Of a stretch of DNA of 64,000 bases, positions 1,712 to 61,510 are shown piece after piece. The position numbers were made by a program, and so were the translations under genes. Position 1 is the first letter of the stretch; every line of letters begins with the position of its first letter. Below the pieces are notes generated by a model. That model searched no databases. It was not told the origin of the DNA and saw only the letters and a program-made list of their open reading frames with translations. Source of the DNA: Dictyostelium discoideum (lineage: Eukaryota); NCBI GenBank assembly GCA_000004695.1, contig CM000155.2:3008001-3072000 (forward strand). The letters are read 5' to 3'.

Positions 1712-3046
1712 ATGAAAATCACAAACAACACCACAAATATTAAGCAACACAAATGCCTACAAAAAATAAGCGAAATTGTGGATAAAACTCAATTAAAAAA
1801 AAAACAATTCAAATACGTCATAAACATCAATCACGAACCAGACGATAAAATAAAAAAAGATTTAGAAAAAAGTTTGGACAAAAAAGATGTTTTAATCAAA
1901 AGTAATAATACATTCAAAATTCTCACAGACAGTATTAGTACAGTAATCTATTTTGTAAATATGTTTGATGCAGAATTAAAAGGACAATTTATAACCACTA
2001 TAAGACCAAAAAATATGTATACAGATTTTGATTGGTATAAATCACTCACAGAAATAGAATGGGTAATAGAAAATGAAGGATGTAAACTAATTAAATCAGA
2101 AATTAAAGGCGAAACTCTAATTATCAAAACAGTGAAAAGAGTCGTAGAAGAATTTGACACTATCATTGAACTAGACAATCTAACATTAATTGGACACTCC
2201 AACAAAGGATGGAGAGATCAAACCTCATTACCAGAAAATCAAGAAGAAAACAAAAATAAAAAACAATCAGATGAACAACAACCACAATCTACATCAGAAC
2301 AAATACCAAAACAAGGAAAAAGAACAATCATTATCCCACCAATCACATCCTCATCTAATGATAAAACATTTATGGCCCTAGATGATACAGCTCAAAAGGT
2401 AATAGAAGCATCACTAGAAAACGTAGATGAACTAACAAGAATAGAGAATGAGATCAATACACAATCGATAAACAATCAAGAAATTAAAACAAAATCAGAA
2501 AAACCTATCGAACCACCATCTCCATACAATACACCAATAAAACAACACGGCGAAACAAAGGGACTAACAACGGAAGAAAAACTTAGAGAGGCAAATGATA
2601 TCTTCGACTTCACCAGCCCAAACACTGATGCAATAAGAAAAATAGAATTCCCACTTTCAATCCCTTCAAATCAATGGTTCTTCTCCTCTCCAATAAAACA
2701 TATCATGAGTTTCAGCCCAACCTATGGTACACCATCGAAAATTATCGATTCACCAAGTAAATTGTTAAACACACCAAAAAAGAAACAACAAGACAAAACA
2801 AACAAGACCAACAAAACACCAGTCAAACCAAAATTGGGTGAATATGGACAAAAAAGCATAAAAACAAAAATGGATGAAGATATAGACAACTTCAACAAGG
2901 AAATTCTAAAACAAATCAATAAATCAAAAAACCCCACAAACACACAAGACCAACAACACAATGAACAAAGTAAAGATCAGTTAGAAGACAAAATAAACCA
3001 GAAACTTCAAAAGGTAGATAAAAATCTACCCCAAATAAAACTATAA
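1712..3046 (+). CDS. TRE5-A ORF1 protein (444 aa)
   Basis: This is an intact ORF. A nearly identical copy (2 aa differences) lies at 58410-59744 on the minus strand. A truncated copy of its first 63 codons occurs at 3444-3636. Confidence 0.85.
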   Translation: MKITNNTTNIKQHKCLQKISEIVDKTQLKKKQFKYVININHEPDDKIKKDLEKSLDKKDVLIKSNNTFKILTDSISTVIYFVNMFDAELKGQFITTIRPKNMYTDFDWYKSLTEIEWVIENEGCKLIKSEIKGETLIIKTVKRVVEEFDTIIELDNLTLIGHSNKGWRDQTSLPENQEENKNKKQSDEQQPQSTSEQIPKQGKRTIIIPPITSSSNDKTFMALDDTAQKVIEASLENVDELTRIENEINTQSINNQEIKTKSEKPIEPPSPYNTPIKQHGETKGLTTEEKLREANDIFDFTSPNTDAIRKIEFPLSIPSNQWFFSSPIKHIMSFSPTYGTPSKIIDSPSKLLNTPKKKQQDKTNKTNKTPVKPKLGEYGQKSIKTKMDEDIDNFNKEILKQINKSKNPTNTQDQQHNEQSKDQLEDKINQKLQKVDKNLPQIKL

Positions 3047-6704: not shown

Positions 6705-7924
6705 TTATTGATTATATTTTTTATAAACACTCATAAATTTGGCAATAAAAGCTTCTAAATGAAATATTGGCTTTGAACCAATTTGTGATCTGTGTTCCTG
6801 TTTTTTTATTTTTTTTTATTTTTTTAATAAATAAATAAAAAGTTAATAATTAATTATATAATTTTTTTTTTTTTTTAAAAAATAATATTTACATAATAAG
6901 ATGCCCAATGAATTATTTCAAATTTCATATTATGATCTAGTTTTTTAAAGATTTCTAATAATAAAGTTTTAAAGATTAATTCTGGAGGAATACAATGACC
7001 TAATAATTCGTAGAGTTTACCACGTACTATTGAAAGTCTTGCAGGTGATTGTTCCTCAAAGCAATCCTTAACGATTTGAGAGATGTAATTTTCCCAATCC
7101 AACAATGGTAATTCCGTAGATTGGAAAGGATATTGTTTTGCTTTCTGAGATTCCAATAACATAAGAGCGTAACGTAAATTGCCACCAGACTGTTTAGCGA
7201 CGTTTACAGCCAATTTCGAGGGCAAATCAAATTTTTCAGCGGTTGCCACTTTGGCAAGCACCTTTTCAATCTCCTCTTGCGAAGGTGCAGGCACCCTGAT
7301 ACCCAAACATCTCGACTTGATAGGGTCAATAACTTTGGCAGTCGAGTCGCAACATAAGATCAAACGACAGAATGTTGCATATTTCTCCATAGTTCTTCTG
7401 AGTGCATGTTGGGCGTCTTTCGATAGTTTGTCAACTTCATTTAAAATCACAATTTTAAAAGCGCCCAATGAGCCACTATCGATTGGTGGTGATTGTGCAA
7501 TCTCTTTAATAATGGTTTGAATTACAACACGATCATATGATCCTGCCTCACCTGGATTAATCTCTATATGATAATGACTACTAATCGTTGTAATCTGTAT
7601 ATTCTTACTACTTGTTGGATGTTTAAATGTTCTATGATCAATCTTTAATTTCAATGCATTTGGTCCATATATCTCTTGTAATACCGCTAAAATCCTTGTT
7701 TTTTTACCTGCTCCACTTGGACCATAAACTAATAAATGTGGAAAATCACCACTTTTAATCTGTAAATAAATAAAAATAAATAAATAAATAAATATATATA
7801 TATTTTTCGTTTTTTTTTTATTATTATTATTATTATTTACCATATTCTTTAAATTTATTGATATATCATTATGATAATCCATCTTATCTAATGATGTTGG
7901 TTTATATTTATCAATCCATAACAT
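6705..7924 (-). CDS. rfc3: replication factor C small subunit, RFC3-type (3 exons: 7841-7924, 6893-7759, 6705-6797; ~347 aa)
   Basis: The protein starts MLWIDKYKPTSLDKMDYHNDISINLKNM. After an 81-nt intron it continues IKSGDFPHLLVYGPSGAGKKTRIL, with ..DKLSKDAQHALRRTMEKY..CRLILCC..SRC.. further on. It is collinear with human RFC3 through the C-terminus (EHRSQIGSKPIFHLEAFIAKFMSVYKKYNQ). Recovering that C-terminus requires splicing out 6798-6892. The raw ORF reads through both introns. Confidence 0.85.
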
Positions 7925-8430: not shown

Positions 8431-10565
8431 ATGGAAGAAGAAGAAATAATTGAACCAAAAGATTTTGAAAATGAAGAATCAGAAAATATCCAAATGGATG
8501 AAAATGAAAAACAGATACCAATTCAAACTACAAATGATCCACAAAAGTAATTTATTTAATTTTAATTTTAATTTTAATTTTAATACTAATATCTTAATTT
8601 TTTATATATAGTAAAAATATAATGAGAATTTTAGTTGCAACAGATAATCATTTAGGATATTTAGAAAGAGATCCAATTAGAGGTGATGATTCATTTAATT
8701 CATTTGAGGAGATATTAAAATATGCACATACATTAAAAGTTGATATGGTATTATTGGGTGGTGATTTATTTCATGATAATAAACCATCAAGATCATGTTT
8801 ATATCGTACAATGGAATTATTTAGAAAGTATTGTTTAGGTGATTCACCAGTTAGAATTCAATTTCTATCGGATCAATCTGTTAATTTTTCAAATCAATTT
8901 CATACAGTGAATTATGAAGATCCAAATTTTAATATTTCATTACCAATATTTTCAATCCACGGTAATCACGATGATCCAACTGGTGAGGGTGGTTTGGCAG
9001 CTTTAGATTTATTATCAGTTTCGAATCTAGTCAATTATTTCGGTAAAACTGAAGATATTGATGATATTACAGTCTACCCATTACTACTTGGTAAAGGTGA
9101 GACAAAAATAGCGATCTACGGGTTAGGTAATATTAGAGATGAGCGTTTGCATAGAACTTTTCAAAAGCAATCAGTGAAATTAATGAGACCGGTGGAATCA
9201 AAAGATGAATGGTTCAATATTTTAGTACTTCATCAAAATAGGGTAGCCCACAATCCAAAGAATTATGTTCACGAGAAGATGATAGAAAGTTTCATAGATT
9301 TCGTTCTATGGGGACACGAACATGAATGTTTAGTCAATCCACAGGCATCGTCAGTGGGAGAATTCCATATTTCACAACCTGGTTCTTCAGTAGCTACAGC
9401 TTTATCAGAGGGTGAATCAAAGGATAAATTTGTAGGATTGTTGGAGGTTTATAAAAATCAATTCCGTTTTAAACCATTCCCATTGAACACGGTTAGACCA
9501 TTCATTATGGATCAAATCATACTTGCAAATAGTAACATACATCCAACACAACAGAATGATGTAATTCAATGGATTGAGCAAAAAGTAGAATCAATGATTG
9601 AACAAGCCAAATTAAAATCTCAAGGTAAACCCAACGAATCAATGTTACCATTGATAAGATTAAAAGTTGATTATACTGGTTATAGTACTATCAATCCTCA
9701 AAAGTTTGGTCAAAGATTTCAAGGCCGTGTAGCAAATCCAAATGATGTTTTATTATTCCACAGAAAGAAACCAACCACTTTATCAAGTAAAAAACAAAAG
9801 GATGGTGGTGAATTGGATGTGAATTCAATCAAAGAAAAAGAAGAAGATAAAGTGAAAGTGGCCGATTTCATAAGTGAATTCTTGGGTAATACACCAAATG
9901 ATCGTTTACAAATTCTATCAGAGAATGATCTATTCAATAGTTTACATTCATTCGTTGAAAAGGATGAAACCGATTCAATATTGAAAATGGTTGATCTCTC
10001 TTTAAAATCGACTCAAAAATATTTAAATTCAAAAATCTCTTCAAAAGATGCTTACCCAGATTTCATTGCTAAATATATTGATGATAATTTCCCATTACCA
10101 CATCAAAATGTATCTTCGGTCAATTCAGATTTATTACCAATAAATAATCCAAATGAATTTGAATCAAATTTATTAGATGAAGATTCTCATGGTCATGAAC
10201 ATGGTCATAGTCATAATCATAGTCAAATGATTGATAATGATGATGATGAAAACATTTTAAATCAAAGAACAATTTTTAAATCACCACAATCAAATAAAAC
10301 AGCACCAACAACAACTACTACCACCACTACTACTACATCTTCACAAATTTCAACAAGAAGAAAATCTTCAACTCAATCTTCAACTCAATCTTCACAAACT
10401 TCAATTATAATAGATGATGATGATGATGATGATGAAATTAATGAAGATAATGATGATAATGATAAAGATTTTGAAAGTGATGAAGAGAAAACTCCACCAT
10501 CAAAGAAAAGAGGTAAAGTTAAACAAGTTGGTTCAGTTTCAAAAAGATCAAGATCAAAGAAATAA
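8431..10565 (+). CDS. mre11: double-strand-break repair nuclease Mre11 (main exon 8612-10565; putative 5' exon 8431-8546)
   Basis: The main exon starts MRILVATDNHLGYLERDPIRGDD..LLGGDLFHDNKPSR..SIHGNHDDPTG..GHEHE. These are the Mre11 phosphoesterase motifs I-V. An upstream in-frame ORF (MEEEEIIEPKDFENEESENIQMDENEKQIPIQTTNDPQ) ends at a GTAATT donor. It joins in frame to a TATATATAG acceptor 10 nt before the annotated ATG. The protein has an acidic/Ser-rich C-terminal tail. Confidence 0.85.
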
Positions 10566-10650
10566 ATTGTATTATAAATAATATATAAATAAATTTTTTT
10601 TTTATTTTTTTTTTTTTTATTTTTTTTATTTTTTTTTTTTATTTTATTTT

Positions 10651-10925
10651 TTAAATAGAATCCCAATCAGTTTTAATATTATTTAAACTTAATTTATCCA
10701 TACTAATAGTATAAGAATAATGATTTAAAAAATAATCAGTTTGAACACCAATTGAAGGTATACAAAGTGGTAAATTATCAGAAGCATCAGCGATAACCAA
10801 GAATAATAATTTTGTATATCTTGGATAACTTGAAATTATTTTACGTTGATTTCGATCAAAATGAACATGATCAACTTGATCATAAAATCTAACTATTAAT
10901 TTTGGTAATGATTGTGATGATGATA

Positions 10926-10994
<69 letters not shown>

Positions 10995-12648
10995 GTAAAG
11001 AAGATTTTGATTGTTTTTCTGAAATGAAGATTGTAAAATTATGAAATTTAAAATAAGTGTTAATTGGTAAATCTACTTGATTACTTTTTTTAGGTTGAAA
11101 AACAGATTGAGCTATTAGATAATGATTGAATTTATTATTTTCAAAATTTTTTTCATTGTAAATAAATAATTTATGAGAAGAGATTGGAATATTTGGTTTT
11201 TGTTTTAATGAGTTTACAATTTGATTATATTTCTTTTGTTGAAAAAATGAAAATTCATTACTAATAATACAGCTTAGTCTATGAAGTAAACGAGATTGAA
11301 TGGTTGGTGGTAAACTATTATAGTATTTCAAGGGTACTCTAATTAGGGGTAATCTCAAATCACGAATATTATTTTTATGTTCATTGAGTTCTAAAATGTC
11401 ATTTAACATCTTTTGTAAAACTTTATCAGTTTGATCTTTAATCATTCGGATTGGAGTTAAACCACTAAGGAATTGTTTTAAATTTATAGTTGTTGATAAT
11501 GGTGATTCAATTGAAAACTCTTTGAAATCTCTTAGTTGATGACGTGTTTTATTTCTACTATAGGATACTGGATCGTCGTTGGTTGGATCATTAAAATATT
11601 GAATTGATCTTTCTGAACAAAAATCCAGTATTTCCAATTTCGAGAAATCTAATAATGGTCTCACCAATAGCACAGAGTGGGTATTTGAAATTTTGGTTAT
11701 TTTAGTCATGGCTGCTAGTCCATCCAATCCACTGTTTTTATTAATTCTTTGTATAAATGTTTCCATTTGATCATTTAAATTTGTTCCATAAAATATTAAA
11801 TTATTACCATTTCCAACAGACTCACTCATTAGTATCTCAATTCTTTGATTACGTAATGACACTTGTTGTTTACATCTTTGTTCATCAATTTCAACTACTT
11901 TATGTTTAATTTTAATAAAGTTTGAATTATTATCATTGTTGATTAATTGATTGATGATTTTACTTATGTATGGTATATCCTCGGCTACAGGATTTGTCAT
12001 TTTATGATCGATTGTAATCACTGTGATTTTTAATTTTCTATTTACATTGGCTGAATTCTCTCCAATACACCAATTCTTTAATAAATATAATAATACCATA
12101 CTATCACTACCACCAGATACACCAATAACTAATGTTGATTTATTACTAATAGTTAATGTATTCATAAATTCTTGAAATTTAAATTCAATCATTTTAGAAT
12201 CAAAGAAAATATCTGGTCTTGCTTTTGCTTCACTTATTTTTTCACTGTAATCATTACTATTTTTATTACTACCATTATTTTTATTTCCAAATAAACCAGT
12301 ATTTACAATTTTATTTGTTACACTTAAACTCATTAATTTTTTAATTTCTTTTAATTTATTATATTGATTGATATCAACTGGTAATCCAATTGTAGTTTCT
12401 TTTATTTTTTCATTTTTGTCAATACTAAAATTATCATTATCATTATTATTTTTATTATTATTATCATTATCATTATTATTGTTATATATATGTGTTGTTT
12501 TATTATTATTTATACCACTATTATTATTGTTATTATTATTATCATCATTAATATTATAAGTTGGTGATTTTGATGTAGTTGTTGAATAGTATGACACATT
12601 TATTCTATTCGCTATGGTATATTTTGGTAATTTAATTAATTTATTCAT
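10651..12648 (-). CDS. tRNA(Ile)-lysidine synthetase (TilS, PP-loop ATPase), probably organellar
   Basis: The PP-loop LVIGVSGGSDSMVLLYLL matches the SGGxDS motif. NLNDQMETFIQRINKNSGLDGLAAM aligns with E. coli TilS [33 protein letters not shown] and NDPTNDDPVSYSRNKTR align with EDESNQDDSYDRNFLR. The basic, hydroxylated, acid-free N-terminus (MNKLIKLPKYTIANRINVSYYSTTTSKS) resembles a mitochondrial presequence. The protein also has poly-N and poly-S insertions. Confidence 0.8.
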
Positions 12649-21752: not shown

Positions 21753-24700
21753 TTATTTTGACCAAATTACTGGATGTTTTTGATTTGTTTGATTCATGAA
21801 TTGAGTTTGAGAATCTTCATCAATTGGAGAAGAACGTTTTTTATAACGACCATCAGATAACATTTCCCAAGCGTTTGAATCATTACAATAAACATTTATA
21901 ATTTCATAGAGTTGTTTGATGTTATTAGCATCGTCAACAGGAACCATTACTTCGACACGACGTTTAAGATTACGATGTAACCAATCGGCTGATGCAATAT
22001 AAGCTTTTGGTTTGCCATTATTATGGAAACAATAGATTCTTGAATGTTCAAGGAAACGACCAAGAATTGAGATGACTTTAATATTTTCACTGATACCTTT
22101 AATTCCTGGAAGTATTCTACAACGACCTCTAACGACTAGAGTGATTTTCACACCTGCTATACTTGCTTGGTAGAGGGCATTGACCAATCTCTTATCATCC
22201 AAACCATTCATGACGGCATTGATAGTTGCGTCTTTACCTTCTCTGGCGTTCTTTGCCTCGTTATCGATCAATTGGATTAAAGTGGATCTCATATTCATTG
22301 GAGCGATTAAAAGTTTCTTAAAGGAGGATACACGGCTATAGCCAGTGAGGTAGTTGAAAAGGTTGCACATATCTTCACCTAGGTCAGGGTCACAACTGAA
22401 TAGACAAATATCGGCATAGACGTCAGAGGTGCTTGCATTGTAGTTACCAGTGGAGATATTTAAATACTCTCTTAGACCATTCTCCTCCTCACGTACGACC
22501 ATTGCGATTTTAGCATGAGTTTTCAAACCAACCAAACCATAACTTACATGACAACCAGCTTGTTCCAAAAGACGGGCGAATTTTGTATTTTGTTCTTCGT
22601 CACCAGATGCCTTCAAATCCACCAAGACCATAACCTCCTTATGAGAGGCAGCCTCGCAAAGTGCACGAATCAATTGAGAATTTGAGTTTGTTCTATAGAT
22701 TGCGATTTTGATTGCCAATACTTTTGGATCCTTAACTGCACTTTCAATAAAGAATTGAACAGAAGAATTGAAGCTTAGATAAGGTAAATTCACCAATAGC
22801 TCACCTTTTCTAATGACAGAAAAGACGTCCTCTGATGGATATTTTGCCAAGTTTACTAATCTACTTGGGATGTGGGGTACCCAAGGTTGGAATTTGAGAT
22901 GTGGTAAGTTTAATTTACAAAGTTCAAAGAGATCTTGTAAACCCAATGGACCATTGATGACGTAGACATCATAGGCATCCAATGCCAATTGTGTCTTTAA
23001 CATATCCAATATCTCTGCGGGCATATTATGACTGACCTCTAATCTAACCATTGGTGCAAACTTTCTCTTATGTAATTCGGTTTTAATTAATTCCAAAAGA
23101 TCATTTGCCTGATCCTCTCCACTAAGCTTCAAATCATTGTGACGTGATACACGGAACAATGACTTTGTCAAGATTTTAGTGTTTGGGAAGAGTGTATCCA
23201 AATTTGCCAATATTATCTCCTCCATTGGTATGATTGAATAGTTGGAACGTTGTTTAATATGTACAAAACGTGGGATTCTTTGAGGCACTTTAATACGTAC
23301 GAATCTGGTGGTATCTTCGTCATGTTTCAAAAGGACCGCTATGTTCAATGAGAGATTACTAAGATTAGGGAATGGATGACCTGCATCGACCACCAATGGT
23401 GTCATCAATGGGAAAACATGTTGTAAAAAGAAACCACGTAATTGAATTTTCTCTGGTTCTGTTAAATCGGAATACTTTATAATGAATACATTATTATTTG
23501 AAAGTTCTGGTGCTAATATATTCATATAGATATTATAAATCTCATTGATTAAATTTCTTGTTGTATTCAATACCATATTAATATAATGTTCCTCTGGTTT
23601 CAATGTTTTTCTAGTAGAAATATAACCTAATCTTAACTTTAATGCACGTTTACAAAAATACATATCCAAATTTTGTGATGTAATTGCAATGAATCTAACA
23701 CGTTCTAATATTGGATAAGTTGGATTATATGCTTCATAAAGTATACGATAAAAGTAAATTAATTCTGATAATTCCCTATTAAAAAACATTCTTGAACCAC
23801 TTAATTGTAAAACTTTAATATCAATTGGTATTTCTGATTCTGGTATACTTTGTTGTTGTTGTTGTTGCTGTTCTGCTAAACTACCATTACCATTTGGAAT
23901 TATTGATGATGATGATAATCCTGAAATTAAGGGTGAAGTTGAACCATCACCACCTGATGAAAATGGTTTACCAATCATTGTTGATGATTTAAAATCATTG
24001 TTATTATTATTATTTGTATTTTGAATTAAATTATTAAATAAATTATCAACATCTAAAATTGTATGTTTTACAGATGGTACAATGAAATTATTTTCACTAT
24101 CAACTATATCTTGACAATAGGATGGATCTGGTAAGACATTTGCTAATGGTGGTGCATCCCATGAATTTAATGATGTAAATTTAGATTTTGTTGAATCTGA
24201 ATTACAATTACCATTACTATTACTATTACTATTATTATTATTACTACTACTACTACTACTACTACCACTACTAATGTCATTTTTCAAAGGTTCGGAAATT
24301 GGTTGTGGATTTTGAACAGTTAGGACATTTGATGTACCTAATTCACTTAAACCTAACATTGATGATAATTTAATTGGTTGAACTGGTGATTTTGATGGAT
24401 TCACTGTTGATGATTTTACAAATTCAGTTGGTGAGAATAATGTACCAGATTCCATTAATTGACAATTTTGAACTGGATTTGCTGTGGTTTCTTTATTTTT
24501 AGATTTTGATTTTGATTTTGATGATTTTGATGATGATTTTGATGAACGTTTCTTTTTTTTATCATTTGGATTTGGAATTAATTTACCATTGCCACCATTT
24601 GATTCTGCTGCTGAATCTTCATCTTCTTCATCAAATGATGATGATTCTTCATCATAATCATCTTCGAAATCAACTGGACATTCTTGTGATATTTTATATC

Positions 24701-24914
24701 TATGTAATTCCATTGCTGCTGTTGATGATGATGATCCAGTATGTTCATCATCACTTTCTTCACCACTTGTTGAAGTAGTTGTTGTAGTAGTGGTAGTGGT
24801 GGAGGTGGTGGTGGTGGTTGATTCTTTATTATTACTATTAATTTTGAGTTTATTTAATTCTTCTTCATCAAATTCATCTAATATTTTATTTTCCATTTTT
24901 GAGTTAGTTATCAT
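21753..24914 (-). CDS. ppk1: polyphosphate kinase 1, bacterial-type PPK1 (1053 aa), with a ~370-aa low-complexity N-terminal extension
   Basis: The C-terminal ~680 aa are collinear with bacterial PPK1. Matching segments include RMFFNRELSELIYFYRILYEA, PLVVDAGHPFPNLSNLSLNIAVLL, LEVSHNMPAEILDMLKTQL, GLKTHAKIAMVVREEENGLREYLNISTGNYNASTSDVYADICLFSCDPDLGEDMCNLFNYLTGYS, LVVRGRCRILPGI and GRFLEHSRIYCF. These include the PLD-like phosphohistidine motifs. The gene is a single exon. Confidence 0.9.
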   Translation of the reverse strand: MITNSKMENKILDEFDEEELNKLKINSNNKESTTTTTSTTTTTTTTTSTSGEESDDEHTGSSSSTAAMELHRYKISQECPVDFEDDYDEESSSFDEEDEDSAAESNGGNGKLIPNPNDKKKKRSSKSSSKSSKSKSKSKNKETTANPVQNCQLMESGTLFSPTEFVKSSTVNPSKSPVQPIKLSSMLGLSELGTSNVLTVQNPQPISEPLKNDISSGSSSSSSSNNNNSNSNSNGNCNSDSTKSKFTSLNSWDAPPLANVLPDPSYCQDIVDSENNFIVPSVKHTILDVDNLFNNLIQNTNNNNNNDFKSSTMIGKPFSSGGDGSTSPLISGLSSSSIIPNGNGSLAEQQQQQQQSIPESEIPIDIKVLQLSGSRMFFNRELSELIYFYRILYEAYNPTYPILERVRFIAITSQNLDMYFCKRALKLRLGYISTRKTLKPEEHYINMVLNTTRNLINEIYNIYMNILAPELSNNNVFIIKYSDLTEPEKIQLRGFFLQHVFPLMTPLVVDAGHPFPNLSNLSLNIAVLLKHDEDTTRFVRIKVPQRIPRFVHIKQRSNYSIIPMEEIILANLDTLFPNTKILTKSLFRVSRHNDLKLSGEDQANDLLELIKTELHKRKFAPMVRLEVSHNMPAEILDMLKTQLALDAYDVYVINGPLGLQDLFELCKLNLPHLKFQPWVPHIPSRLVNLAKYPSEDVFSVIRKGELLVNLPYLSFNSSVQFFIESAVKDPKVLAIKIAIYRTNSNSQLIRALCEAASHKEVMVLVDLKASGDEEQNTKFARLLEQAGCHVSYGLVGLKTHAKIAMVVREEENGLREYLNISTGNYNASTSDVYADICLFSCDPDLGEDMCNLFNYLTGYSRVSSFKKLLIAPMNMRSTLIQLIDNEAKNAREGKDATINAVMNGLDDKRLVNALYQASIAGVKITLVVRGRCRILPGIKGISENIKVISILGRFLEHSRIYCFHNNGKPKAYIASADWLHRNLKRRVEVMVPVDDANNIKQLYEIINVYCNDSNAWEMLSDGRYKKRSSPIDEDSQTQFMNQTNQKHPVIWSK

Positions 24915-27801: not shown

Positions 27802-29200
27802 ATGTCACCCAATGATGTTGAACAACAGCAGCTACCAACCCAAAATAACAACTATAATGATAATATAAATAGTCCATCATTAAATGATGATGATGAGGAT
27901 TCATTTTTTAGAGAAATTAAAGAAATTAGCAGAGGTAGACCAAAAACTAGAGATGAAATTCAAATAAGTGATAGAACAAGACTATCAAGATGGGATACAC
28001 CTTTAACAAATGATGGGGTTTCACCTTTTTCAAGTATTTTTAAAACCCTACCACCTGGTTTAACTGATGAACAAATTGCTGCTTTAATTTGTAAGTAAAA
28101 AAAAAAAAACCTATTACACACACACACAATTATAATAACTTTTTTTTTTTTTTTTTTTTTTTTTATGAATAATTTTGAAGTAAGATTAAGAGTTGATGAA
28201 ATTACAAAGAAAATTACAATTGGACCAATTGAATTTACAGAGAGAGATAGAGAGAGATCACCATCACCACCACCAACTTATGATAATAATGGTAAGAGAT
28301 CAAATACAAGGGAACAGAGAATTAAGGAAAAGCTACAAAAGGAGAGACATCAATTGGTTGTAACAGCACAACAAATCAATCCAACCTATAAACCACCATC
28401 AGATTATCAACCACCAAATGAGAAGAAAACTAGAAAGATCTACATCCCAATAAAGAATCATCCAGAATATAATTTCATTGGTTTAATCATCGGACCACGT
28501 GGTAACACACAAAAACGTATGGAGAAAGAGTCTGGTGCAAAAATTGCTATCAGGGGTAAAGGTTCATCACGTGATGGCAAACCAACCAAACTTCAATTTC
28601 AAGAGAATGATGAGTTACACGTTCTCCTAACTGCAGACACTGTTGATCAATTGGATAAGGCGGAAGTGTTGGTTAGAGAGTTTTTAATACCAGTTGAGGA
28701 GGGTAAGAATGAACATAAACGTCAACAACTTCGTGAATTGGCTGAAATGAATGGTACACTTAGAGAACGTCCTGCTTACATGGGTAATCGTAGTTGGACA
28801 CCTGTCGATATAAAATGTGTTCAATGTGGTGAAACTAGTCATCCTTCCTCTGATTGTCCATTACGTTCGAATGAATCAAATCAACAATATATCGAATCTG
28901 AATATCAAAAATTCATTGATGAAATGTCTAAATCTTTAGGTTTTGATATTAGTATTTCTCCAAATCAAAATGATAATTCTTTACAAAATATAAATTTAAA
29001 TAATAATAATAACAATAGTAATGGTAATAATAATGGAAATAATAATGGACGTAATTTTAATAATGATACTGTTGGTGATATGGATGAATCACCTCCACAT
29101 CATACTCAATCACACTTTCAACAAAATTCACCTCAATTTGATCAACAACAACACCAACAACAATGGAATAATAATAACAATAACAACAACAATAACAATC

Positions 29201-29267
<67 letters not shown>

Positions 29268-29343
29268 TAATAATAACAATAATAATAACTTTTCAAATTA
29301 TAATGTAAATATATTTTCAAACATTAGAAAAAGAAAACTATAA
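27802..29343 (+). CDS. sf1: splicing factor 1 / branchpoint-binding protein (2 exons: 27802-28090, 28181-29343)
   Basis: Exon 1 contains RLSRWD and ends [13 protein letters not shown] at a GTAAGT donor. Exon 2 carries the SF1 helix ([40 protein letters not shown]), the KH/QUA2 domain ([44 protein letters not shown]...ELHVLLTA...[16 protein letters not shown]) and a CCHC zinc knuckle ([14 protein letters not shown]). It ends in a poly-N tail. Confidence 0.85.
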
Positions 29344-34365: not shown

Positions 34366-36187
34366 TCCAATAGAATTTGTGATATAGTAAATAATTTAGT
34401 TTCTATTAGTTTTTTATTTACTACAACAAAAATAGATAGATATAAAAATAGTTTTTTTTTTTTTTTTTTTCTCAAATATATATAAATATTAATAGTTTTT
34501 TATTTTTATTATTATTATTATTATTATTAATTAATAATTTTATAGAGAAGTTTCAGAACAACATTTATTTGAAATTTTCAATCAAGTTGGTTTAGTATCA
34601 AACATTAGAGTTTGTCGTGATACCAATACTCGTCGTTCATTAAGTTATGCATACGTTAACTACTATAATGGTGCAGATGCTGAACGTGCATTGGATACCT
34701 TAAACAATACCCCAATCAGAGGTAAGGCCTGTCGTATTATGTGGAGTCAACGTGATCCATCACTTCGTAAATCAGGTGTTGGTAATGTTTTCATCAAGAA
34801 CCTCGACAAAGGTATTGATCATAAAGCATTATATGATACCTTTAGTGCTTTTGGTAACATTTTATCATGCAAAGTTGTCACTGACGATGGTAACAGTAGC
34901 AAAGGTTTTGGTTTCGTTCACTATGAAACCCAAGAATCTGCCGATAAAGCTATTGCCAAAGTCAATGGTATGATGATTAACGGACAAAAGGTTTTCGTCG
35001 GTCCATTCAAATCCTCAAAGGAACGTGGTCAACCAACCGAAGTTAAATTCACCAATGTCTTCTTCAAGAATCTCTCTGAAGATGTAGGTCCAGATCAATT
35101 GAAAGAACTCCTCCAACAATATGGTGAAATTACCAACATCACCATAATGGCCGACGATAAGGGTAAGAGTAAAGGTTTTGGTTTCGCCAACTTTGAATCA
35201 GCCGAAGCTGCAAAGAACGTCGTTGAAAACGAAAATGGTAAAATCTTCCATGGTAAACCAATCTATGCTGGTCGTGCCCAAAAGAAGATTGAACGTGAAG
35301 CTGAACTCAAACACACTTTTGAAACCAAATATCAAGGTGTCAATCTCTACATCAAAAACATTGACGACTCTATCGACAATGATAAACTCCGTGAAGTTTT
35401 CTCTCAATTCGGTACCATAACCTCTGCTATCGTTATGAAAGACGACAAAGCCACCACCAGCAAAGGTTTTGGTTTCGTTTGTTACACCGCACCAGATGAG
35501 GCCACTCGTGCCGTCACCGAAATGAACGGTCGTATGATTGGTACCAAGCCATTGTACGTTGCTTTAGCTCAACGTAAAGATATTCGTCGTGCTCAACTCG
35601 AAATGCAACACCAACAAAAATTCAAAACTGGTATCCGTCAACAAATGCCACCAACCTACGGTAGTGGTCCAGTTTTCTTCACTCCAGCCCCAGTCAACCC
35701 ACAAGTTGTCTACCAACAAATGATGCCACGTCCACGTAACTGGAACGGTCAACCAGTAGGTGTCCCACAAGGTCAATACGCCAATATGAACTATGCCCGT
35801 GGTCAACCACGTCAAAATGGTCCACGTCAAAACGGTGGTCAACCACGTCAAAACGGTCCACGTCCAGACGTTTCAGGTGCTCAACCAATTCCAGTTCAAC
35901 AACAAACCACTTTGGATGTCGCTCAAACTCAACAAGCCGCCTCATCAGCTGAATCTGCTCTTAACCTCCAATCAATCATCAATCTCCCATCTCGTGATCA
36001 ACAAAACGTTGCTCTCGGTGAACACCTCTACCCATTAATCCACAACTCTCAACCAGATTTGGCCGGTAAAATCACAGGTATGCTCTTAGACTCTTTACCA
36101 GTTGAAGAATTATTCACCCTTACTCAACGTCAAGACTTGTTAGCCGATAAAATCAGAGAAGCCCTTGAAGTTTTAGGTTCAAACTAA
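33877..36187 (+). CDS. pabpc1A: cytoplasmic poly(A)-binding protein (2 exons: 33877-33932, 34546-36187; ~565 aa)
   Basis: Exon 1 (MATNFTPISSSLYVGDLLP) ends at a GTAAGT donor. Exon 2 carries four RRMs with RNP1 motifs KGFGFVHY, KGFGFANF and KGFGFVCY. The C-terminal PABC/MLLE domain reads HLYPLIHNSQPDLAGKITGMLLDSLPVEELFTLTQRQDLLADKIREALEVL. The GC-enriched codon usage indicates high expression. The paralogue symbol is tentative. Confidence 0.85.
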
Positions 36188-36864: not shown

Positions 36865-38953
36865 TTAACTAACTTGTAATTTCATAGTAATATTAACAGC
36901 AGCAAGTTCAGCAACTAAATAAGTGAAAACGTAAGGAATTGAAATTGTAGCGATTGAATCACTGGATTTACAAGATTTACATTCAGAAACAGTTTGATTG
37001 GAATAATCTTTTTTAGAGTAGATTGTGAGGGTACTACCACATAATTTACAAACTTTAATCTTTGCGAAATCAGAGGATTTCATGAGACGATCATTCAAAC
37101 AGAAACTAGCACCATGAGCCAAAAGGGAATCACGTTCCATCTCACCGAAACGAATACCACCACCAACCTTACGACCTTTAATTGGTTGACGAGTTAAAGC
37201 ATTAACTTTACCGAGAGCACGTACTTGATATTTATCTTTAACCATATGACGTAATCTTTGATAGTAACAAACACCGAAAAAGATTTCACATTCAAATTCT
37301 TTACCAGTGGTACCACTATACATTTGTTCATTACCAAAACGATTGAAACCTGCCTTTGCCAATTGTTCACCAAAGAAATCGATGGCTGTATTGTTTTCAT
37401 CGAATTGGAAAGCGGTGGCATCTTGGAATTTACCATGGATTGCACCAGCTTTACCGGCTAAAATCTCTACCAACATACCAATGGTCATACGTGATGGGAA
37501 AGCATTTGGATTGATAATTACATCTGGTTTCATACCACTTTCAGTGAATGGCATATTAATTTCTGGCCATAATTGGGAAAGAACACCTTTTTGACCATGA
37601 CGAGAGGAAAATTTATCACCAATGACAGGATTACGATTGAAACGTAATTTAACACAAATGTTATTGATTTTAGATGGATCACGAGTTGCACCATTTGGAC
37701 CGAAAATGATACGAACATCTTCAATATAAGCTTCTTCTTTACCTTTGTAATCTTTGGTGACTTGTCTACCATCGGATGGACGAATATAGGTATAATATGG
37801 TTCACCAGGTTTAATTAAACGACCAACGAATGGAAGACCATCGGTATCAATAAATTTATCCAATTCATCTACAACTGTATTTGGACGACCAAAAAATGTT
37901 TTCTTTTGTTCAAAACGTGATAAACCTTGATCCAAATCGATGTATTCATTCTTGTAAACGGAACCATGACCAAAACCACGTTCATAAGCGGATTTATTAA
38001 TAATCATAGCATCTTCCATATCGTAACCAGTATTTGAAATTACGGCAATAACAGCATTACAACCGTGTGGATAATCATTACAACGGAATTTGAATTGATT
38101 TTTAGTGTGTACGATTGGTTTTTGTACATTTTGAACCTTGTATAATTTATTATCGGTACGGAATGGATAGGAATGTAATGGGGTACCCATAGTTTGTTTT
38201 GCCATTTGACATTGATACATATTACGTGGTGATTGATTGTAGTCAGAGAATGGTGTAAGATTTGCCAACAATGAAAACATAGCAGTTGGTGAAGTTTCAA
38301 TATGAGTTGTAACACCTTTGATAACTTCATGTGGTACAACAGCAATCTCCATATATAGTTGTTCTTGTGGTCCAATCAATTCATTTTGACCACTTGTCAA
38401 ATTGACTACTGGTCTCATGAAACGTGCACCAGTTGTAAACAATGAAATGCCTGAATATTGACCATTTTCAACGTTGGTTGGTGGTGCATATGAAATTTCC
38501 ATGGTTTTTGGAATTGATGGTTCATTACCCATTGAACGAAGATAACGTAACATTTTAACCATCTCTTCACCTGCTTTTGGTTCAATCTTACCCAATACAC
38601 GACCATCCAATGTAATAGTGAGATATTGATGTTGATAAACACTAACCATATCAATTGGTAACATACCATGTGCTGCTAAAAATGATGGTAATAATGTTTG
38701 TGCCTTTTGAACAGTTGGATCTTGTGCTGCATCAACTGTAACCAAACAATTTGATGATAAATGATTCAATAAACCACATGGTGCACCATCTGGTGTATGT
38801 ACTGGACAGAAAAAGCCCCAACTTTCTGGCATCAACTTTCTAATTGCTGTAGTTTTCATTGTTGCAAAAAATGCACCTCTATGAATTGATCTAAAATGTG
38901 AAATAAATCTTAAAAAGTTTAATTTATCTGCAATAACACAAAAACCTGATGTC

Positions 38954-39039
<86 letters not shown>

Positions 39040-40492
39040 TTATTAATAACCTATTAATTAAATAATAGTTTTTTTTTTTTTAATTACTTACTTGTTGTAA
39101 ATCAATACCAGAACTTGATCTAAGATTACCAGTTGCTAAGAAATAACTAAATCTATCAGCTATTTTAAAGTTTTTATCTAATACTTTTTTAAGTGCATCT
39201 GGCAATTTATCACCAGATTTCTTTTTATCTTCAAAACTCTTTAAAACAAATGATTTTGTAGATTCTAAATATTCTGTTAATTTCTCTTTTAAAATCATAC
39301 CATAAATATGACCAGCTAATAAAACTTCTTGGAATGCTGGTGAATCAATATTATCTGTACCACATTTACCACCAACCATTGCATATAATTTTTGAATCAT
39401 TAAACTATTAATAAAATAAATTTTAAAAAAAAAAAAAAAAAAAAATTAATATTTTTAATAAAATAAATTTTTATAATAAAATTTAATAAATATAACTTAC
39501 ATTAATAAATTATATTTATCATTATAATTTGGTAAATGAACAAAAACAAATTGATTAATAAACCATCTACCAATTTTAATATTTGAAAATGAAGGTGGGA
39601 ATTGAGTACGAGCTCTAAAACGTGAACCAATATAATCTAAAACTTCTTCTTGAGTGTTAATATTATTAATTTTTTGTTCACGAAGTGATAATTCAACACG
39701 ATCAGTGAGAAAAGTATTTTCATTATCACCTTGAACGATATTTTCATAGATTTCCTTTTCAGTGGTATCTTTTAATGCTTTTAAGAGGAGAGTAGCAGGT
39801 AAAAAGAATTCTTGACGACGATATAAGAAACGTAATGTAGTTTGACCATCATTGATATAATGAAGATTGTTTGTAATTGATGAACGATCTGGACGAACAC
39901 AACGAATGGTAATACCATTTTTAGTGTAACCTGGACCTCTGTTTGTCCATGCTTTTCTGTGAAGTGCAACTGGATGATTTGCTTTTGTCATGACCAACAT
40001 ACGTACAACCTTTTCATTACCATTGACAATGAAATAACCACCTTGCTCCAATTCCTCTTCTCTACTTTCAATTAATTTCTCTGGTGACATGCCATTGAGG
40101 TGACAATATCTTGACTTCACCATAATTGGTAAACGACCTAAATCAACCTCAAATGTATGAGTTGGCTCTTGTTTATTATAATCTACCTCTGTACCGTCAT
40201 CCATCTCATCCATTTCATTAACTTCATATAAACCAATTGCACCTTTAAATGGTGCATTATAAGTTGTACCGGTTTCTCTTGATTCATTTGGATATAATTT
40301 AATCTCTTTTTCAACAATATTACGTGTTGGTCTTGAAAGTTTCAAATCTGTAAATCTGATTTTATATTGAGTACTATTATGTTCAAAATATAATGGTTCA
40401 CTATCTTTTAATACTAAATCTATACCATGATCTGTAAAAAAATCAAATGAATCAATGTGTGGTTGGATTAATGATTTTAATTCTTCACTCAT
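36865..40492 (-). CDS. rpa2: DNA-directed RNA polymerase I second-largest subunit, RPA2/RPA135 (3 exons: 39501-40492, 39092-39404, 36865-38952; ~1130 aa)
   Basis: It is collinear with yeast Rpa135. Ours LLILMIQKLYAMVGGKCGTDNIDSPAFQEVLLAGHIYGMILKEK aligns with LLFMIRKLYSLVAGECSPDNPDATQHQEVLLGGFLYGMILKEK. Ours [26 protein letters not shown] aligns with [26 protein letters not shown]. The C-terminal Zn-ribbon (CKLCGS...CKSCKS) is present. The introns (GTAAGT donors, TTAG acceptors) fall exactly where the raw ORFs break. Confidence 0.9.
38955..39037. repeat. (TAA)n microsatellite inside rpa2 intron 2
   Basis: This is a perfect trinucleotide run of about 28 units. Confidence 0.9.
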
Positions 40493-40906: not shown

Positions 40907-41118
40907 ATGCCAAGTTTTTCATGTGATAATTGTGGTGATATTTTAGAGAAAAAGAAATTAGCATTCCATAGATGCAATAGTCGTCGTACTGATTATTCAT
41001 GTGTACAATGTTCAGGTAGATTCTCACTGGAATCCAGTAAAGCACATTCAATTTGCATATCTGAAGAACAAAAAGTTCAAGGTAAATTATATAGAGGTCC
41101 AAGAAATGGAAATAATAA

Positions 41119-41166
<48 letters not shown>

Positions 41167-48691: not shown

Positions 48692-52850
<4,159 letters not shown>

Positions 52851-60582: not shown

Positions 60583-60665
60583 CCGGCTTTGGCGCAATGG
60601 TAGCGCGATTGACTGTAGTATTGAAAGTGATCAATCGGTTGCTAGTTCGAATCTGGCAAGCCGGA
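60583..60665 (+). tRNA. tRNA-Tyr (anticodon GUA) with an 11-nt intron
   Basis: The acceptor stem is CCGGCTT/AAGCCGG and the D-stem is GCGC/GCGC. The anticodon stem-loop is ATTGA-CTGTAG-[TATTGAAAGTG]-A-TCAAT. The intron sits after position 37, exactly as in other eukaryotic tRNA-Tyr genes (CTGTAG|intron|A). The T-arm is GCTAGTTCGAATCTGGC. The gene is followed by T4 and A8. Confidence 0.85.
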
Positions 60666-60693
60666 CTTTTAAAAAAAATAATTTTATAATCAC

Positions 60694-61410: not shown

Positions 61411-61438
61411 TGATCTCTGCCTTGGGTTTTAAAAAAAG

Positions 61439-61510
61439 CTCCCCATTCGGGAATCGAACCCGAGGTACCAGTGTGAAAGACTAGAGTGTTACCGACTACA
61501 CCAATGAGGA
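61439..61510 (-). tRNA. tRNA-Glu (anticodon UUC), second copy
   Basis: Its reverse complement is identical to the 45148-45219 gene and is flanked by poly(A/T). Confidence 0.9.

What the first reader, a model, noticed from the sequence alone, without database searches (positions are those of the whole stretch)
10651..12648. Nuclear gene for a bacterial-type tRNA(Ile)-lysidine synthetase (TilS) with a mitochondrial-presequence-like N-terminus
TilS converts the CAU anticodon of tRNA-Ile2 to LAU so that AUA is read as Ile. It is a bacterial/organellar enzyme. The ORF has the SGGxDS PP-loop and the TilS-specific DDQ(C/M)ETF...G..GL.AM block. It begins with a basic, Ser/Thr-rich, acid-free stretch typical of mitochondrial targeting peptides. 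This implies the mitochondrial translation system of this organism uses lysidine-modified tRNA-Ile(CAU) and imports the modifying enzyme. The protein is also inflated by poly-N and an 18-Ser run encoded by (TCA)n.
Basis: partly seen in the sequence, partly recalled or inferred. Interest (0 to 1): 0.5.

Follow-up and report, generated by a model that had tools for sequence, protein, structure and literature searches.

The report
Dictyostelium nuclear gene for mitochondrial TilS
This is an intact, selectively constrained Dictyostelium discoideum nuclear gene for the bacterial-type enzyme that rewrites the anticodon of a mitochondrial isoleucine tRNA so that AUA is read correctly, and it is an ordinary new example of a system already known in fungi, sponges and plants.

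Summary
Window 10651-12648 (minus strand) is a single-exon 665-aa ORF. Its catalytic domain passes NCBI's TilS-specific model (TIGR02432, 122 bits against a cutoff of 93.6) and carries the SGGSDS PP-loop and an NDQMETF...GLDGLAAM block.

The N-terminus is acid-free for 34 residues, has net charge +5 and is rich in Ser/Thr. It sits ahead of a 177-residue extension that bacteria lack. All five complete dictyostelid orthologues share these traits without sharing sequence.

The gene lies in conserved synteny (emp24, TilS, Mre11) and is under purifying selection (omega 0.18 overall, 0.05 in the catalytic domain).

Two corrections are needed. The Ser run is 22 residues, not 18, and is absent from another strain. 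The motif starts NDQ, not DDQ.

Nuclear-encoded mitochondrial TilS is already documented in fungi (S. pombe til1), sponges, placozoans and plants, and UniRef auto-names several dictyostelid orthologues as TilS. Verdict: real, correctly interpreted, low novelty.

The parts
10651..12648 (-). Complete single-exon CDS of the TilS orthologue (665 codons plus stop at 10651-10653)
   Evidence: ORF list. An identical 665-aa gene is called in NCBI assembly GCA_054883475.1. Orthologues are single-exon in D. discoideum ACTFIR and D. purpureum.
12547..12648 (-). Residues 1-34: presequence-like N-terminus (net +5, no acidic residue, Ser/Thr/Tyr-rich)
   Evidence: The same properties occur in D. purpureum, P. 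violaceum, T. lacteum and A. subglobosum (first acidic residue at 35-44, net +3 to +7). Only 5% of bacterial TilS N-termini are acid-free for 30 residues. Targeting itself is inferred.
12154..12546 (-). Residues 35-165: low-complexity Asn/Asp/Lys-rich N-terminal extension absent from bacterial TilS
   Evidence: The PP-loop starts at residue 178, against a median of 29 in 110 mostly bacterial homologues. GC is 0.18. Omega is 0.195 against ACTFIR, so the region is still coding. It was not modelled.
11509..12153 (-). Residues 166-380: N-type ATP-pyrophosphatase (PP-loop) catalytic domain of TilS
   Evidence: PF01171 covers residues 173-371 (E=5.5e-33). TIGR02432 scores 122.4 bits against a cutoff of 93.6. 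Block-mean pLDDT is mostly 80-97. Omega is 0.054.
12100..12117 (-). PP-loop SGGSDS (residues 178-183), ATP alpha/beta-phosphate binding motif
   Evidence: These positions are invariant in all aligned bacterial TilS.
11707..11775 (-). NDQMETFIQRINKNSGLDGLAAM (residues 292-314), TilS signature block
   Evidence: D293 and E296 are invariant in every aligned sequence. The first residue is Asn, where most TilS have Asp.
11197..11508 (-). Residues 381-484: mainly helical middle domain (CTD1-like)
10654..11196 (-). Residues 485-665: beta-rich distal C-terminal domain (CTD2-like, the putative acceptor-stem-binding domain), interrupted by the Ser run
10744..10899 (-). Residues 584-635 'LIVRFYDQVDHVHF...SYPRYTKLLFLVIADASDNLPLCIPSIGV': sequence core that aligns with bacterial TilS_C (l.vR.r..GDrf...KKl....kiP...R..iPLl....i.wv.G)
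   Evidence: hhalign of the Dictyostelium+yeast+plant C-termini against bacterial TilS_C gives P=5.8e-5. The five-species dictyostelid profile gives P=0.015 over 65 columns in the same register. pLDDT is 77-92 in the fragment model.
10927..10992 (-). Perfect (TCA)22 microsatellite encoding Ser553-Ser574, inserted in a disordered loop of the C-terminal domain
   Evidence: pLDDT is below 50. A 24-residue stretch containing the run is absent from D. discoideum ACTFIR, and D. purpureum has no Ser run at this position. The run is present in GCA_054883475.1.

Best explanation
The ORF is the D. discoideum nuclear gene for a three-domain (type I-like) tRNA(Ile)-lysidine synthetase that works in mitochondria.

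Proposed course of events: the protein is made in the cytosol. Its basic, acid-free N-terminus directs import into the mitochondrial matrix (inferred). There the PP-loop domain uses ATP to adenylate C2 of cytidine 34 of the mtDNA-encoded tRNA-Ile(CAU), and lysine displaces AMP to give lysidine. This is the mechanism established for bacterial TilS and is inferred here. The change switches the tRNA from reading AUG and being charged with Met to reading AUA and being charged with Ile. That is needed because the AT-rich mitochondrial genome uses the standard meaning of AUA (own knowledge).

The middle and distal C-terminal domains would hold the tRNA body and acceptor stem, as in the G. kaustophilus TilS-tRNA complex.

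Shown here: family identity, predicted fold, conservation, selection, synteny and N-terminal composition. Taken from the literature: existence of the substrate tRNA. Inferred: import, activity and essentiality.
For: - TIGR02432 (TilS N-terminal equivalog domain) scores 122.4 bits against a cutoff of 93.6, and PF01171 gives 5.5e-33.
- The only significant PDB sequence hits are the three solved TilS proteins.
- C-terminal homology to TilS_C is supported by profile-profile comparison at P=5.8e-5 and P=0.015 in the same register.
- The protein keeps 23/27 strongly conserved bacterial positions. E. coli TilS also deviates at the two dictyostelid-specific changes, T218 and T289.
- Purifying selection: omega 0.18 overall and 0.054 in the catalytic domain.
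- Orthologues occur in D. purpureum, P. violaceum, T. lacteum, A. subglobosum and Synstelium. The emp24-TilS-Mre11 synteny was checked in D. discoideum and D. purpureum.
- All complete dictyostelid orthologues have a long N-terminal extension that starts acid-free and net positive.
- D. discoideum mt-tRNA-Ile(CAU) is named and analysed in PMC5041481.
- In an NJ tree the protein groups with yeast TilS homologues at 91% bootstrap. Fungal TilS homologues are linked to mitochondrial trnI(cau), and in fission yeasts til1 and trnI(cau) were lost together.
Against: - There is no direct localisation, activity or modification data for Dictyostelium. Supplementary tables of the two Dictyostelium organelle-proteome papers were not available.
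- The N-terminal hydrophobic moment is ordinary: 0.51, against a mean of 0.55 for bacterial N-termini. I saw no canonical R-2 or R-3 cleavage motif by eye.
- Pfam does not detect the TilS substrate-binding or C-terminal domains. The dictyostelid-only profile and the fragment model give only weak support for the distal domain.
- Two residues that are 99% conserved in the sampled bacteria (Arg and His) are replaced in dictyostelids.
- One review calls the two overlapping mt Ile tRNAs 'GAU(1)' and 'GAU(2)'. I could not inspect the mitochondrial genome to reconcile the names.
Confidence: 0.85

Rival explanations
1. A TilS-derived PP-loop protein that has lost lysidine synthetase activity or acquired another tRNA-modifying or RNA-binding role, with the divergent C-terminal half recognising a different substrate.
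For: - Identity to D. purpureum is only 34-37%.
- The near-universal Arg and His are replaced by Thr218 and Thr289 in both Dictyostelium species.
- Pfam fails to detect the two C-terminal TilS domains.
- The full-length E. coli-type model NF007942 scores 64.6 bits against a cutoff of 606.
Against: - The invariant residues are all kept: S178, G179, G180, D182, S183, H215, R266, R269, D293, E296, R330, P331, D354, N357, R365 and R369.
- E. coli TilS itself has Ser and Gln at the two deviating positions.
- The catalytic domain is under strong constraint, with omega 0.054.
- The predicted fold matches all three TilS domains.
- There are no CxxC or Fe-S cysteine motifs of the thiolase relatives, and TtcA scores only 19.5 bits against a cutoff of 272.
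- A cognate CAU tRNA exists.
Confidence: 0.07
2. An active TilS that is not mitochondrial, for example a cytosolic or nuclear enzyme acting on a nuclear-encoded tRNA. The N-terminal extension would then be only Dictyostelium-typical low-complexity padding.
For: - No targeting predictor or localisation experiment was available.
- The amphipathic moment is unremarkable.
- Poly-N tracts are common in Dictyostelium proteins (own knowledge).
- The yeast homologues lack a long extension, with the PP-loop at residues 32-34.
Against: - Eukaryotic cytosolic AUA decoding uses tRNA-Ile(IAU) and tRNA-Ile(psi-A-psi) and has no known need for lysidine (PMC4558845).
- The acid-free, net-positive first 35-44 residues recur in five dictyostelids with no sequence similarity, which is the pattern expected of a targeting signal rather than padding. 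None of 11 other long ORFs in the window has it.
- In other eukaryotes nuclear TilS presence tracks mitochondrial trnI(cau).
Confidence: 0.05
3. A recent horizontal acquisition from a bacterium, assembly contamination, or a decaying pseudogene.
For: - The family is bacterial in type.
- The window also carries bacterial-type PPK1 at 21753-24914.
- No AX4-labelled protein for this ORF was found in the protein collection.
Against: - Composition is typical of Dictyostelium (GC 0.24, GC3 0.125), with poly-N and (TCA)n tracts.
- The gene is flanked by Mre11 and emp24 in conserved order in two species.
- Orthologues occur throughout Dictyostelia.
- The reading frame is intact with omega 0.18.
- It groups with fungal TilS at 91% bootstrap, which implies ancient eukaryotic ancestry.
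Confidence: 0.02

Closest known systems
Bacterial type I TilS (E. coli TilS/MesJ, PDB 1ni5; Geobacillus kaustophilus TilS-tRNA complex, PDB 3a2k)
   Different: - Sequence identity is only 12-17%.
- There is a 177-residue N-terminal extension with a presequence-like start.
- The C-terminal domains have diverged beyond Pfam detection.
- A (TCA)22 Ser insert sits in the distal domain.
- The gene is nuclear and eukaryotic.
Fungal nuclear-encoded mitochondrial TilS (S. pombe til1; fungal homologues of Xavier et al. 2012; Spathaspora, Allomyces, Funneliformis)
   Same: Nearest eukaryotic relatives, grouping at 91% bootstrap in the NJ tree. The logic is the same: a nuclear gene serving mitochondrial trnI(cau). 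In Schizosaccharomyces, til1 and trnI(cau) were lost together, and til1 is essential in S. pombe. A shared C-terminal motif '...IIAFPSIG...' aligns with the Dictyostelium motif.
   Different: The yeast proteins have almost no N-terminal extension, with the PP-loop at residues 32-34, and lack the low-complexity inserts. Identity is about 31-33% over the catalytic domain.
Holozoan mt-TilS (sponges, Trichoplax, unicellular relatives of animals; Pett & Lavrov 2015, PMC4558845)
   Same: A nuclear TilS homologue whose presence largely follows that of mitochondrial trnI(cau), though with exceptions. This shows the system is ancestral to Amorphea and not special to Dictyostelium.
   Different: A different lineage. 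I did not compare the sequences directly.
Plant RSY3/RASPBERRY3-type TilS and apicoplast PfTilS
   Same: Nuclear-encoded, organelle-targeted TilS with N-terminal transit sequences. Plant proteins share the C-terminal 'iP.aaR..iPvLv....g.ilsIPSIG' motif. Plant TilS has been detected in mitochondrial proteomes at very low abundance.
   Different: These serve plastids, or plastids and mitochondria. In the NJ tree the plant sequences do not group with the dictyostelid/yeast clade.
PP-loop tRNA thiolases TtuA / NcsA(Ncs6) / TtcA
   Different: Only 224-230 residues align. The Cys and Fe-S motifs are absent. The TtcA model scores 19.5 bits against a cutoff of 272. The ORF is not a member of these families.

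Membership tests
TilS (tRNA(Ile)-lysidine synthetase, EC 6.3.4.19) | PP-loop SGGxDS within an N-type ATP-pyrophosphatase domain | tested here: met
   SGGSDS at residues 178-183. PF01171 E=5.5e-33 over residues 173-371.
TilS (tRNA(Ile)-lysidine synthetase, EC 6.3.4.19) | Score above the curated cutoff of the TilS-specific N-terminal equivalog-domain model (TIGR02432) | tested here: met
   122.4 bits against a cutoff of 93.6, E=2e-35.
TilS (tRNA(Ile)-lysidine synthetase, EC 6.3.4.19) | Conserved catalytic-domain residues (HxxR region, R..R, DDQxET, SGxxGL, RPL, D.TN, RN..R) | tested here: met
   23 of 27 positions that are at least 85% conserved in bacterial homologues are identical. All positions that are 100% invariant are kept. 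The deviations at T218 and T289 also occur in E. coli TilS as Ser and Gln.
TilS (tRNA(Ile)-lysidine synthetase, EC 6.3.4.19) | Middle helical tRNA-binding domain (CTD1; Pfam PF09179) | tested here: inconclusive
TilS (tRNA(Ile)-lysidine synthetase, EC 6.3.4.19) | Distal C-terminal domain of type I TilS (CTD2; Pfam PF11734 TilS_C) | tested here: inconclusive
TilS (tRNA(Ile)-lysidine synthetase, EC 6.3.4.19) | Full-length match to the E. coli-type equivalog model NF007942 | tested here: not met
   64.6 bits against a cutoff of 606. This model is specific to a bacterial lineage, so failing it does not exclude TilS function.
TilS (tRNA(Ile)-lysidine synthetase, EC 6.3.4.19) | A cognate tRNA-Ile with a CAU anticodon in the same compartment | not testable with these tools
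   No tool gave access to the mitochondrial genome. From the literature, 'mt-tRNA-Ile(CAU)' of D. discoideum was analysed in PMC5041481. A review names the overlapping Ile tRNAs as GAU(1) and GAU(2). The Cavenderia mtDNA has two adjacent 'trnM' genes.
TilS (tRNA(Ile)-lysidine synthetase, EC 6.3.4.19) | ATP- and lysine-dependent formation of lysidine at C34 | not testable with these tools
   This requires biochemistry or mass spectrometry.
Matrix-targeted mitochondrial precursor proteins (N-terminal presequence) | N-terminal 20-40 residues that are net positive, lack acidic residues and are rich in hydroxylated residues | tested here: met
   Net +5, first acidic residue at 35, and 9 S/T in the first 30. 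The same holds in D. purpureum, P. violaceum, T. lacteum and A. subglobosum. It is rare in bacterial TilS (5%) and absent from the other window ORFs.
Matrix-targeted mitochondrial precursor proteins (N-terminal presequence) | Amphipathic helix and an MPP cleavage motif, or a positive score from a trained predictor | tested here: inconclusive
   The maximum hydrophobic moment is 0.51 in an 11-residue window, against a bacterial mean of 0.55. No clear R-2 or R-3 motif was seen by eye. TargetP, MitoFates and DeepLoc were not available.
Matrix-targeted mitochondrial precursor proteins (N-terminal presequence) | Experimental localisation to mitochondria | not testable with these tools
   Supplementary tables of the Dictyostelium mitochondrial compendium and the spatial proteome papers are not held.
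PP-loop tRNA thiolases (TtcA/TtuA/Ncs6) | Family HMM above cutoff, with Cys and Fe-S ligand motifs | tested here: not met
   TtcA NF007972 scores 19.5 bits against a cutoff of 272. No CxxC motif is visible in the sequence. The structural overlap is limited to the Rossmann-like core, 224-230 residues.

The most novel reading that the evidence does not exclude
Lysidine formation in Dictyostelium mitochondria may be coupled to the unusual 5'-editing of mitochondrial tRNAs. The substrate mt-tRNA-Ile(CAU) has its acceptor-stem 5' end repaired by DdiTLP3. In bacterial type I TilS the distal C-terminal domain reads the acceptor stem (own knowledge). In dictyostelids this is the fast-evolving domain (omega about 0.5), and in some strains it even tolerates a (TCA)22 insert. 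The dictyostelid enzyme could therefore have co-evolved to accept only edited tRNA, acting as a quality checkpoint, or to ignore the acceptor stem altogether.
Probability: 0.12. Interest if true: 0.45.

Novelty: new member of a known kind. Interest (0 to 1): 0.18.

Why it matters
The finding fills in an expected component of mitochondrial translation in a major model amoeba. It extends the documented range of nuclear-encoded mitochondrial TilS from fungi, holozoans and plants to Amoebozoa. That supports the view that the TilS and trnI(cau) pair was inherited from the alphaproteobacterial ancestor and moved to the nucleus early.

Practical points:
- The D. discoideum protein is labelled only 'hypothetical protein' in the assemblies I could see, and I found no AX4-labelled record, so a functional annotation could be added.
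- The gene offers a genetic handle on AUA decoding in Dictyostelium mitochondria, and on its possible interplay with tRNA 5'-editing.

It does not change any concept.

Tried and rejected
- The full-length protein search was swamped by poly-N and poly-Ser words, giving only 5 hits. It was repeated with the non-repetitive core.
- The word-indexed searches missed all other dictyostelid orthologues. Only the exhaustive HMMER search found them.
- Exact-sequence look-up of the ORF found nothing. My first Mre11 look-up used the wrong coordinates and was corrected.
- A bacterial TilS_C HMM against the Dictyostelium sequence alone was not significant, and neither was a three-sequence Dictyostelium profile (E 0.41).
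- The first genome-contig scan used dictyostelid-specific patterns and confirmed nothing. The successful scan is biased, because its patterns came from Dictyostelium's own best bacterial hits.
- I could not obtain the mitochondrial genome or the tRNA-Ile(CAU) sequence. The papers by Abad et al. 2011 and 2014 are not held, the Long et al. supplement is not held, and two further Jackman-lab papers do not mention the anticodon.
- The Dictyostelium mitochondrial compendium and spatial proteome supplements are not held, so there is no localisation evidence.
- dN/dS against D. purpureum is unreliable because dS is saturated at 1.2-1.6.
- I considered and rejected hidden introns (no donor-like sites), a thiolase identity, and contamination or recent HGT (synteny and composition).
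Full report
**What is there**

The window is AT-rich (GC 0.16-0.35). It carries exact copies of D. discoideum AX4 proteins, including DDB_G0293684 on the 3.6-Mb AX4 contig, and exons of DDB_G0293552 and rpa2. It is therefore D. discoideum nuclear DNA, from AX4 or a near-identical laboratory strain.

At 10651-12648 on the minus strand lies an ATG-initiated ORF of 665 codons. The frame upstream is closed by stops and runs into poly-T/poly-A tracts at 12% GC. There are no intron donor-like sites inside the ORF. An identical 665-aa gene is called in NCBI assembly GCA_054883475.1. The orthologues in a divergent D. discoideum assembly (ACTFIR_009117, 645 aa) and in D. purpureum (DICPUDRAFT_79671, 569 aa) are also single-exon.

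- The PP-loop SGGSDS is at residues 178-183, and the block NDQMETF...GLDGLAAM is at 292-314.
- The N-terminus has no acidic residue until position 35, with 5 K/R and 9 S/T in the first 30 residues.
- The poly-N tracts are real.
- The serine run is 22 residues (553-574), all encoded by TCA. It is not 18 residues.

**Family identity**

- Pfam finds only the PP-loop domain (PF01171, E 5.5e-33, residues 173-371).
- NCBIfam's TilS-specific equivalog-domain model TIGR02432 is passed, at 122.4 bits against a cutoff of 93.6. The thiolase TtcA model scores 19.5 bits against a cutoff of 272. The E. coli-type full-length model is far below its cutoff.
- The only meaningful PDB sequence matches are the three solved TilS proteins. 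The alignment to G. kaustophilus TilS extends to residue 453.
- Of 27 positions that are at least 85% conserved in the bacterial homologues I aligned, 23 are identical in D. discoideum, and every 100%-invariant position is kept.
- Two dictyostelid-specific replacements, Arg to Thr218 and His to Thr289, looked worrying at first. The experimentally characterised E. coli enzyme has Ser and Gln at those same positions (alignment), so they do not argue against activity.

**Architecture**

An AlphaFold2 model of residues 150-665, built on an 86-sequence alignment, is confident (mean pLDDT 78.6, pTM 0.76).

- Foldseek's best PDB hit is the TilS-tRNA complex 3a2k (E 1.8e-17), followed by E. coli and A. 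aeolicus TilS.
- The thiolases TtuA and NcsA match only the 224-230-residue core.

I tested the distal domain separately.

- A bacterial TilS_C HMM does not detect the Dictyostelium sequence.
- A profile of eukaryotic C-termini (Dictyostelium, yeast and plant) aligns to bacterial TilS_C at P=5.8e-5.
- A five-species dictyostelid profile aligns over 65 columns in the same register at P=0.015. In this register 'LIVRFYDQVDHV...SYPRYTKLLFLVIADASDNLPLCIPSIGV' matches 'L.lR.R..GDrf...KKl....KiP...R..iPLl....i.wv.G'.

I conclude that the protein is very probably a three-domain, type I-like TilS whose C-terminal domains have diverged beyond Pfam's reach. The (TCA)22 serine run lies in a disordered loop of the distal domain (pLDDT below 50). 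A 24-residue stretch containing it is missing from the ACTFIR strain, and D. purpureum has no Ser run there. It is therefore a recent microsatellite expansion and not a functional element.

**Is it a real, functioning nuclear gene?**

- The order emp24, TilS, Mre11 is conserved between both D. discoideum assemblies and D. purpureum, and RFC follows Mre11 in D. discoideum.
- Against the ACTFIR strain (dS 0.08) the gene shows omega 0.18 overall. The catalytic domain has omega 0.054, from 13 synonymous and 3 non-synonymous changes. Even the low-complexity N-terminal extension has omega 0.20.
- The exhaustive HMMER search found orthologues in Polysphondylium violaceum, Tieghemostelium lacteum, Acytostelium subglobosum and Synstelium polycarpum, and in the early-diverging fungi Allomyces and Funneliformis. 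UniRef auto-names the P. violaceum, T. lacteum, Allomyces and Funneliformis entries tRNA(Ile)-lysidine synthetase.
- Composition (GC3 0.125) is typical of Dictyostelium.
- Contamination, recent transfer and pseudogenisation are therefore excluded.

**Where does it act?**

No targeting predictor was available, so I used comparative composition.

- The PP-loop begins at residue 178, against a median of 29 in 110 mostly bacterial homologues.
- The first 34 residues are net +5 and acid-free. Only 5% of bacterial TilS N-termini are acid-free for 30 residues, and none of 11 other long ORFs in this window is.
- The same properties recur in all five complete dictyostelid orthologues, although the sequences themselves are not alignable: first acidic residue at 35-44, net +3 to +7, S/T-rich, with an extension of 91-177 residues before the PP-loop. 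This pattern is what a targeting peptide would show.
- Two points count against. The helical hydrophobic moment is ordinary (0.51), and I saw no canonical cleavage motif.
- Dictyostelium has no plastid (own knowledge), and eukaryotic cytosolic AUA decoding does not use lysidine (PMC4558845). The mitochondrion is therefore the only sensible destination.

**Is there a substrate?**

- D. discoideum mtDNA encodes 18 tRNAs (PMC13063481 and PMC4284800).
- Long et al. 2016 (PMC5041481) amplified and sequenced 'mt-tRNA-Ile(CAU)' from D. discoideum as one of the tRNAs that undergo 5'-editing.
- A review from overlapping authors calls two overlapping Ile tRNAs 'GAU(1)' and 'GAU(2)'. The acceptor-stem details differ: G72 in GAU(2), against C72 in the tRNA-Ile used in vitro. 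These may therefore be different genes, but I could not read the mitochondrial genome to settle the question.
- The Cavenderia mitogenome lists two adjacent 'trnM' genes and one trnI. That arrangement would fit one CAU gene being a mislabelled Ile2, which is an inference.
- The test is passed on literature evidence, not on sequence I inspected.

**Origin**

- In the unbiased 5.8-billion-protein search, the named bacterial hits closest to the Dictyostelium core are a Proteobacteria MAG, a Rickettsiales MAG and Sneathiella.
- A scan of species-representative genomes returned almost exclusively Alphaproteobacteria, including Micavibrio, Rickettsiales, Rhizomicrobium and Hyphomicrobium. Its search patterns were derived from those same best hits, so the sampling is biased.
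- A Kimura-distance NJ tree of 215 catalytic-domain columns groups the two Dictyostelium species with yeast TilS at 91% bootstrap. It places that group beside the Rickettsiales-like clade at only 51%.
- This is compatible with a mitochondrial, alphaproteobacterial origin shared by Amoebozoa and fungi, but it does not prove one. AT-rich composition could also attract these lineages to each other.

**Comparison with what is known**

Nuclear-encoded mitochondrial TilS is established in several groups.

- Fungal homologues were reported by Xavier et al. 2012.
- S. pombe til1 is essential. It is absent from three fission yeasts that also lack mitochondrial trnI(cau).
- Sponges, Trichoplax and unicellular holozoans have it, and cnidarians and ctenophores, which lack trnI(cau), do not.
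- Plant TilS has been detected in mitochondrial proteomes.
- Apicoplast TilS has been characterised.

I found no paper that discusses the Dictyostelium gene, and no AX4-labelled protein record for it in the collection. The other assemblies call it a 'hypothetical protein'. This is a new, unsurprising member of a known kind.

**Verdict**

- Confidence that this is a functional mitochondrial TilS is 0.85.
- Interest is low (0.18).
- The only mildly novel angle is a possible interplay between lysidine formation and the acceptor-stem 5'-editing of the same tRNA. My data neither support nor exclude it.

Noticed in passing
window 21753-24914 (-): A 1053-aa ORF carries all four bacterial polyphosphate kinase 1 domains (PP_kinase_N, middle, C1 and C2; E down to 1e-66). 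It sits in the window's highest-GC segment (0.35). This is a second bacterial-type gene in the same window and presumably the known Dictyostelium PPK1 (own knowledge).
   Followed up: partly
window 1712-3046 (+) and 58410-59744 (-): Two copies of a 444-aa ORF are each identical to an annotated AX4 'hypothetical protein' from one multi-copy family found on many AX4 contigs (cluster of 17). They have no Pfam hit. One lies about 1 kb from tRNA-Asp (609-681) and the other about 1.7 kb from tRNA-Glu (61438-61510). They are probably ORF1 of a tRNA-gene-targeted retroelement of the TRE5 type (inference).
   Followed up: partly
window 60583-60666 (+): ARAGORN reports a 'tRNA-???' with a four-base anticodon 'gtag'. 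The sequence looks like a tRNA-Tyr(GTA) gene interrupted by a short intron just 3' of the anticodon.
   Followed up: partly
window 10566-10650: The Mre11 ORF (8622-10565, +) and the TilS gene (10651-12648, -) converge, with only 85 bp between their stop codons. That spacer is almost pure A/T, with GC 0.012.
   Followed up: no
L001 (GCA_054859385.1, 'D. discoideum' ACTFIR) against window 561-22628: This assembly, labelled D. discoideum, is only 92-94% identical in DNA to the window across three colinear blocks of about 18 kb in total. Synonymous divergence in TilS is 0.08. This is much more than I would expect within one species (own knowledge) and suggests a cryptic sister lineage.
   Followed up: partly
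window 10651-12648 (-): Neighbouring AX4 genes are in the protein collection under DDB_G identifiers, but no AX4-labelled protein corresponding to this ORF was returned by any search. Only newer assemblies call it, as 'hypothetical protein'. The reference annotation may lack this gene or model it differently. I could not check dictyBase.
   Followed up: partly
window 10927-10992 (-): The (TCA)22 run is a strain-variable, in-frame microsatellite inside a folded tRNA-binding domain. It is present in the window and in GCA_054883475.1 and absent from ACTFIR.
   Followed up: yes
window 6875-7924 (-), 28165-29343 (+), 34691-36187 (+), 36865-40492 (-), 40907-42490 (+), 49542-52850 (+): Ordinary housekeeping neighbours are present: a replication factor C subunit, SF1/BBP splicing factor, poly(A)-binding protein, RNA polymerase I subunit rpa2 exons, a LYAR zinc-finger protein and a Rubicon-homology-domain protein.
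   Followed up: no
literature: Two papers with overlapping authors name D. discoideum mitochondrial isoleucine tRNAs differently. One uses 'tRNA-Ile GAU(1)/GAU(2)' and the other 'mt-tRNA-Ile CAU'. It is unclear whether there are two or three mt tRNA-Ile genes.
   Followed up: partly
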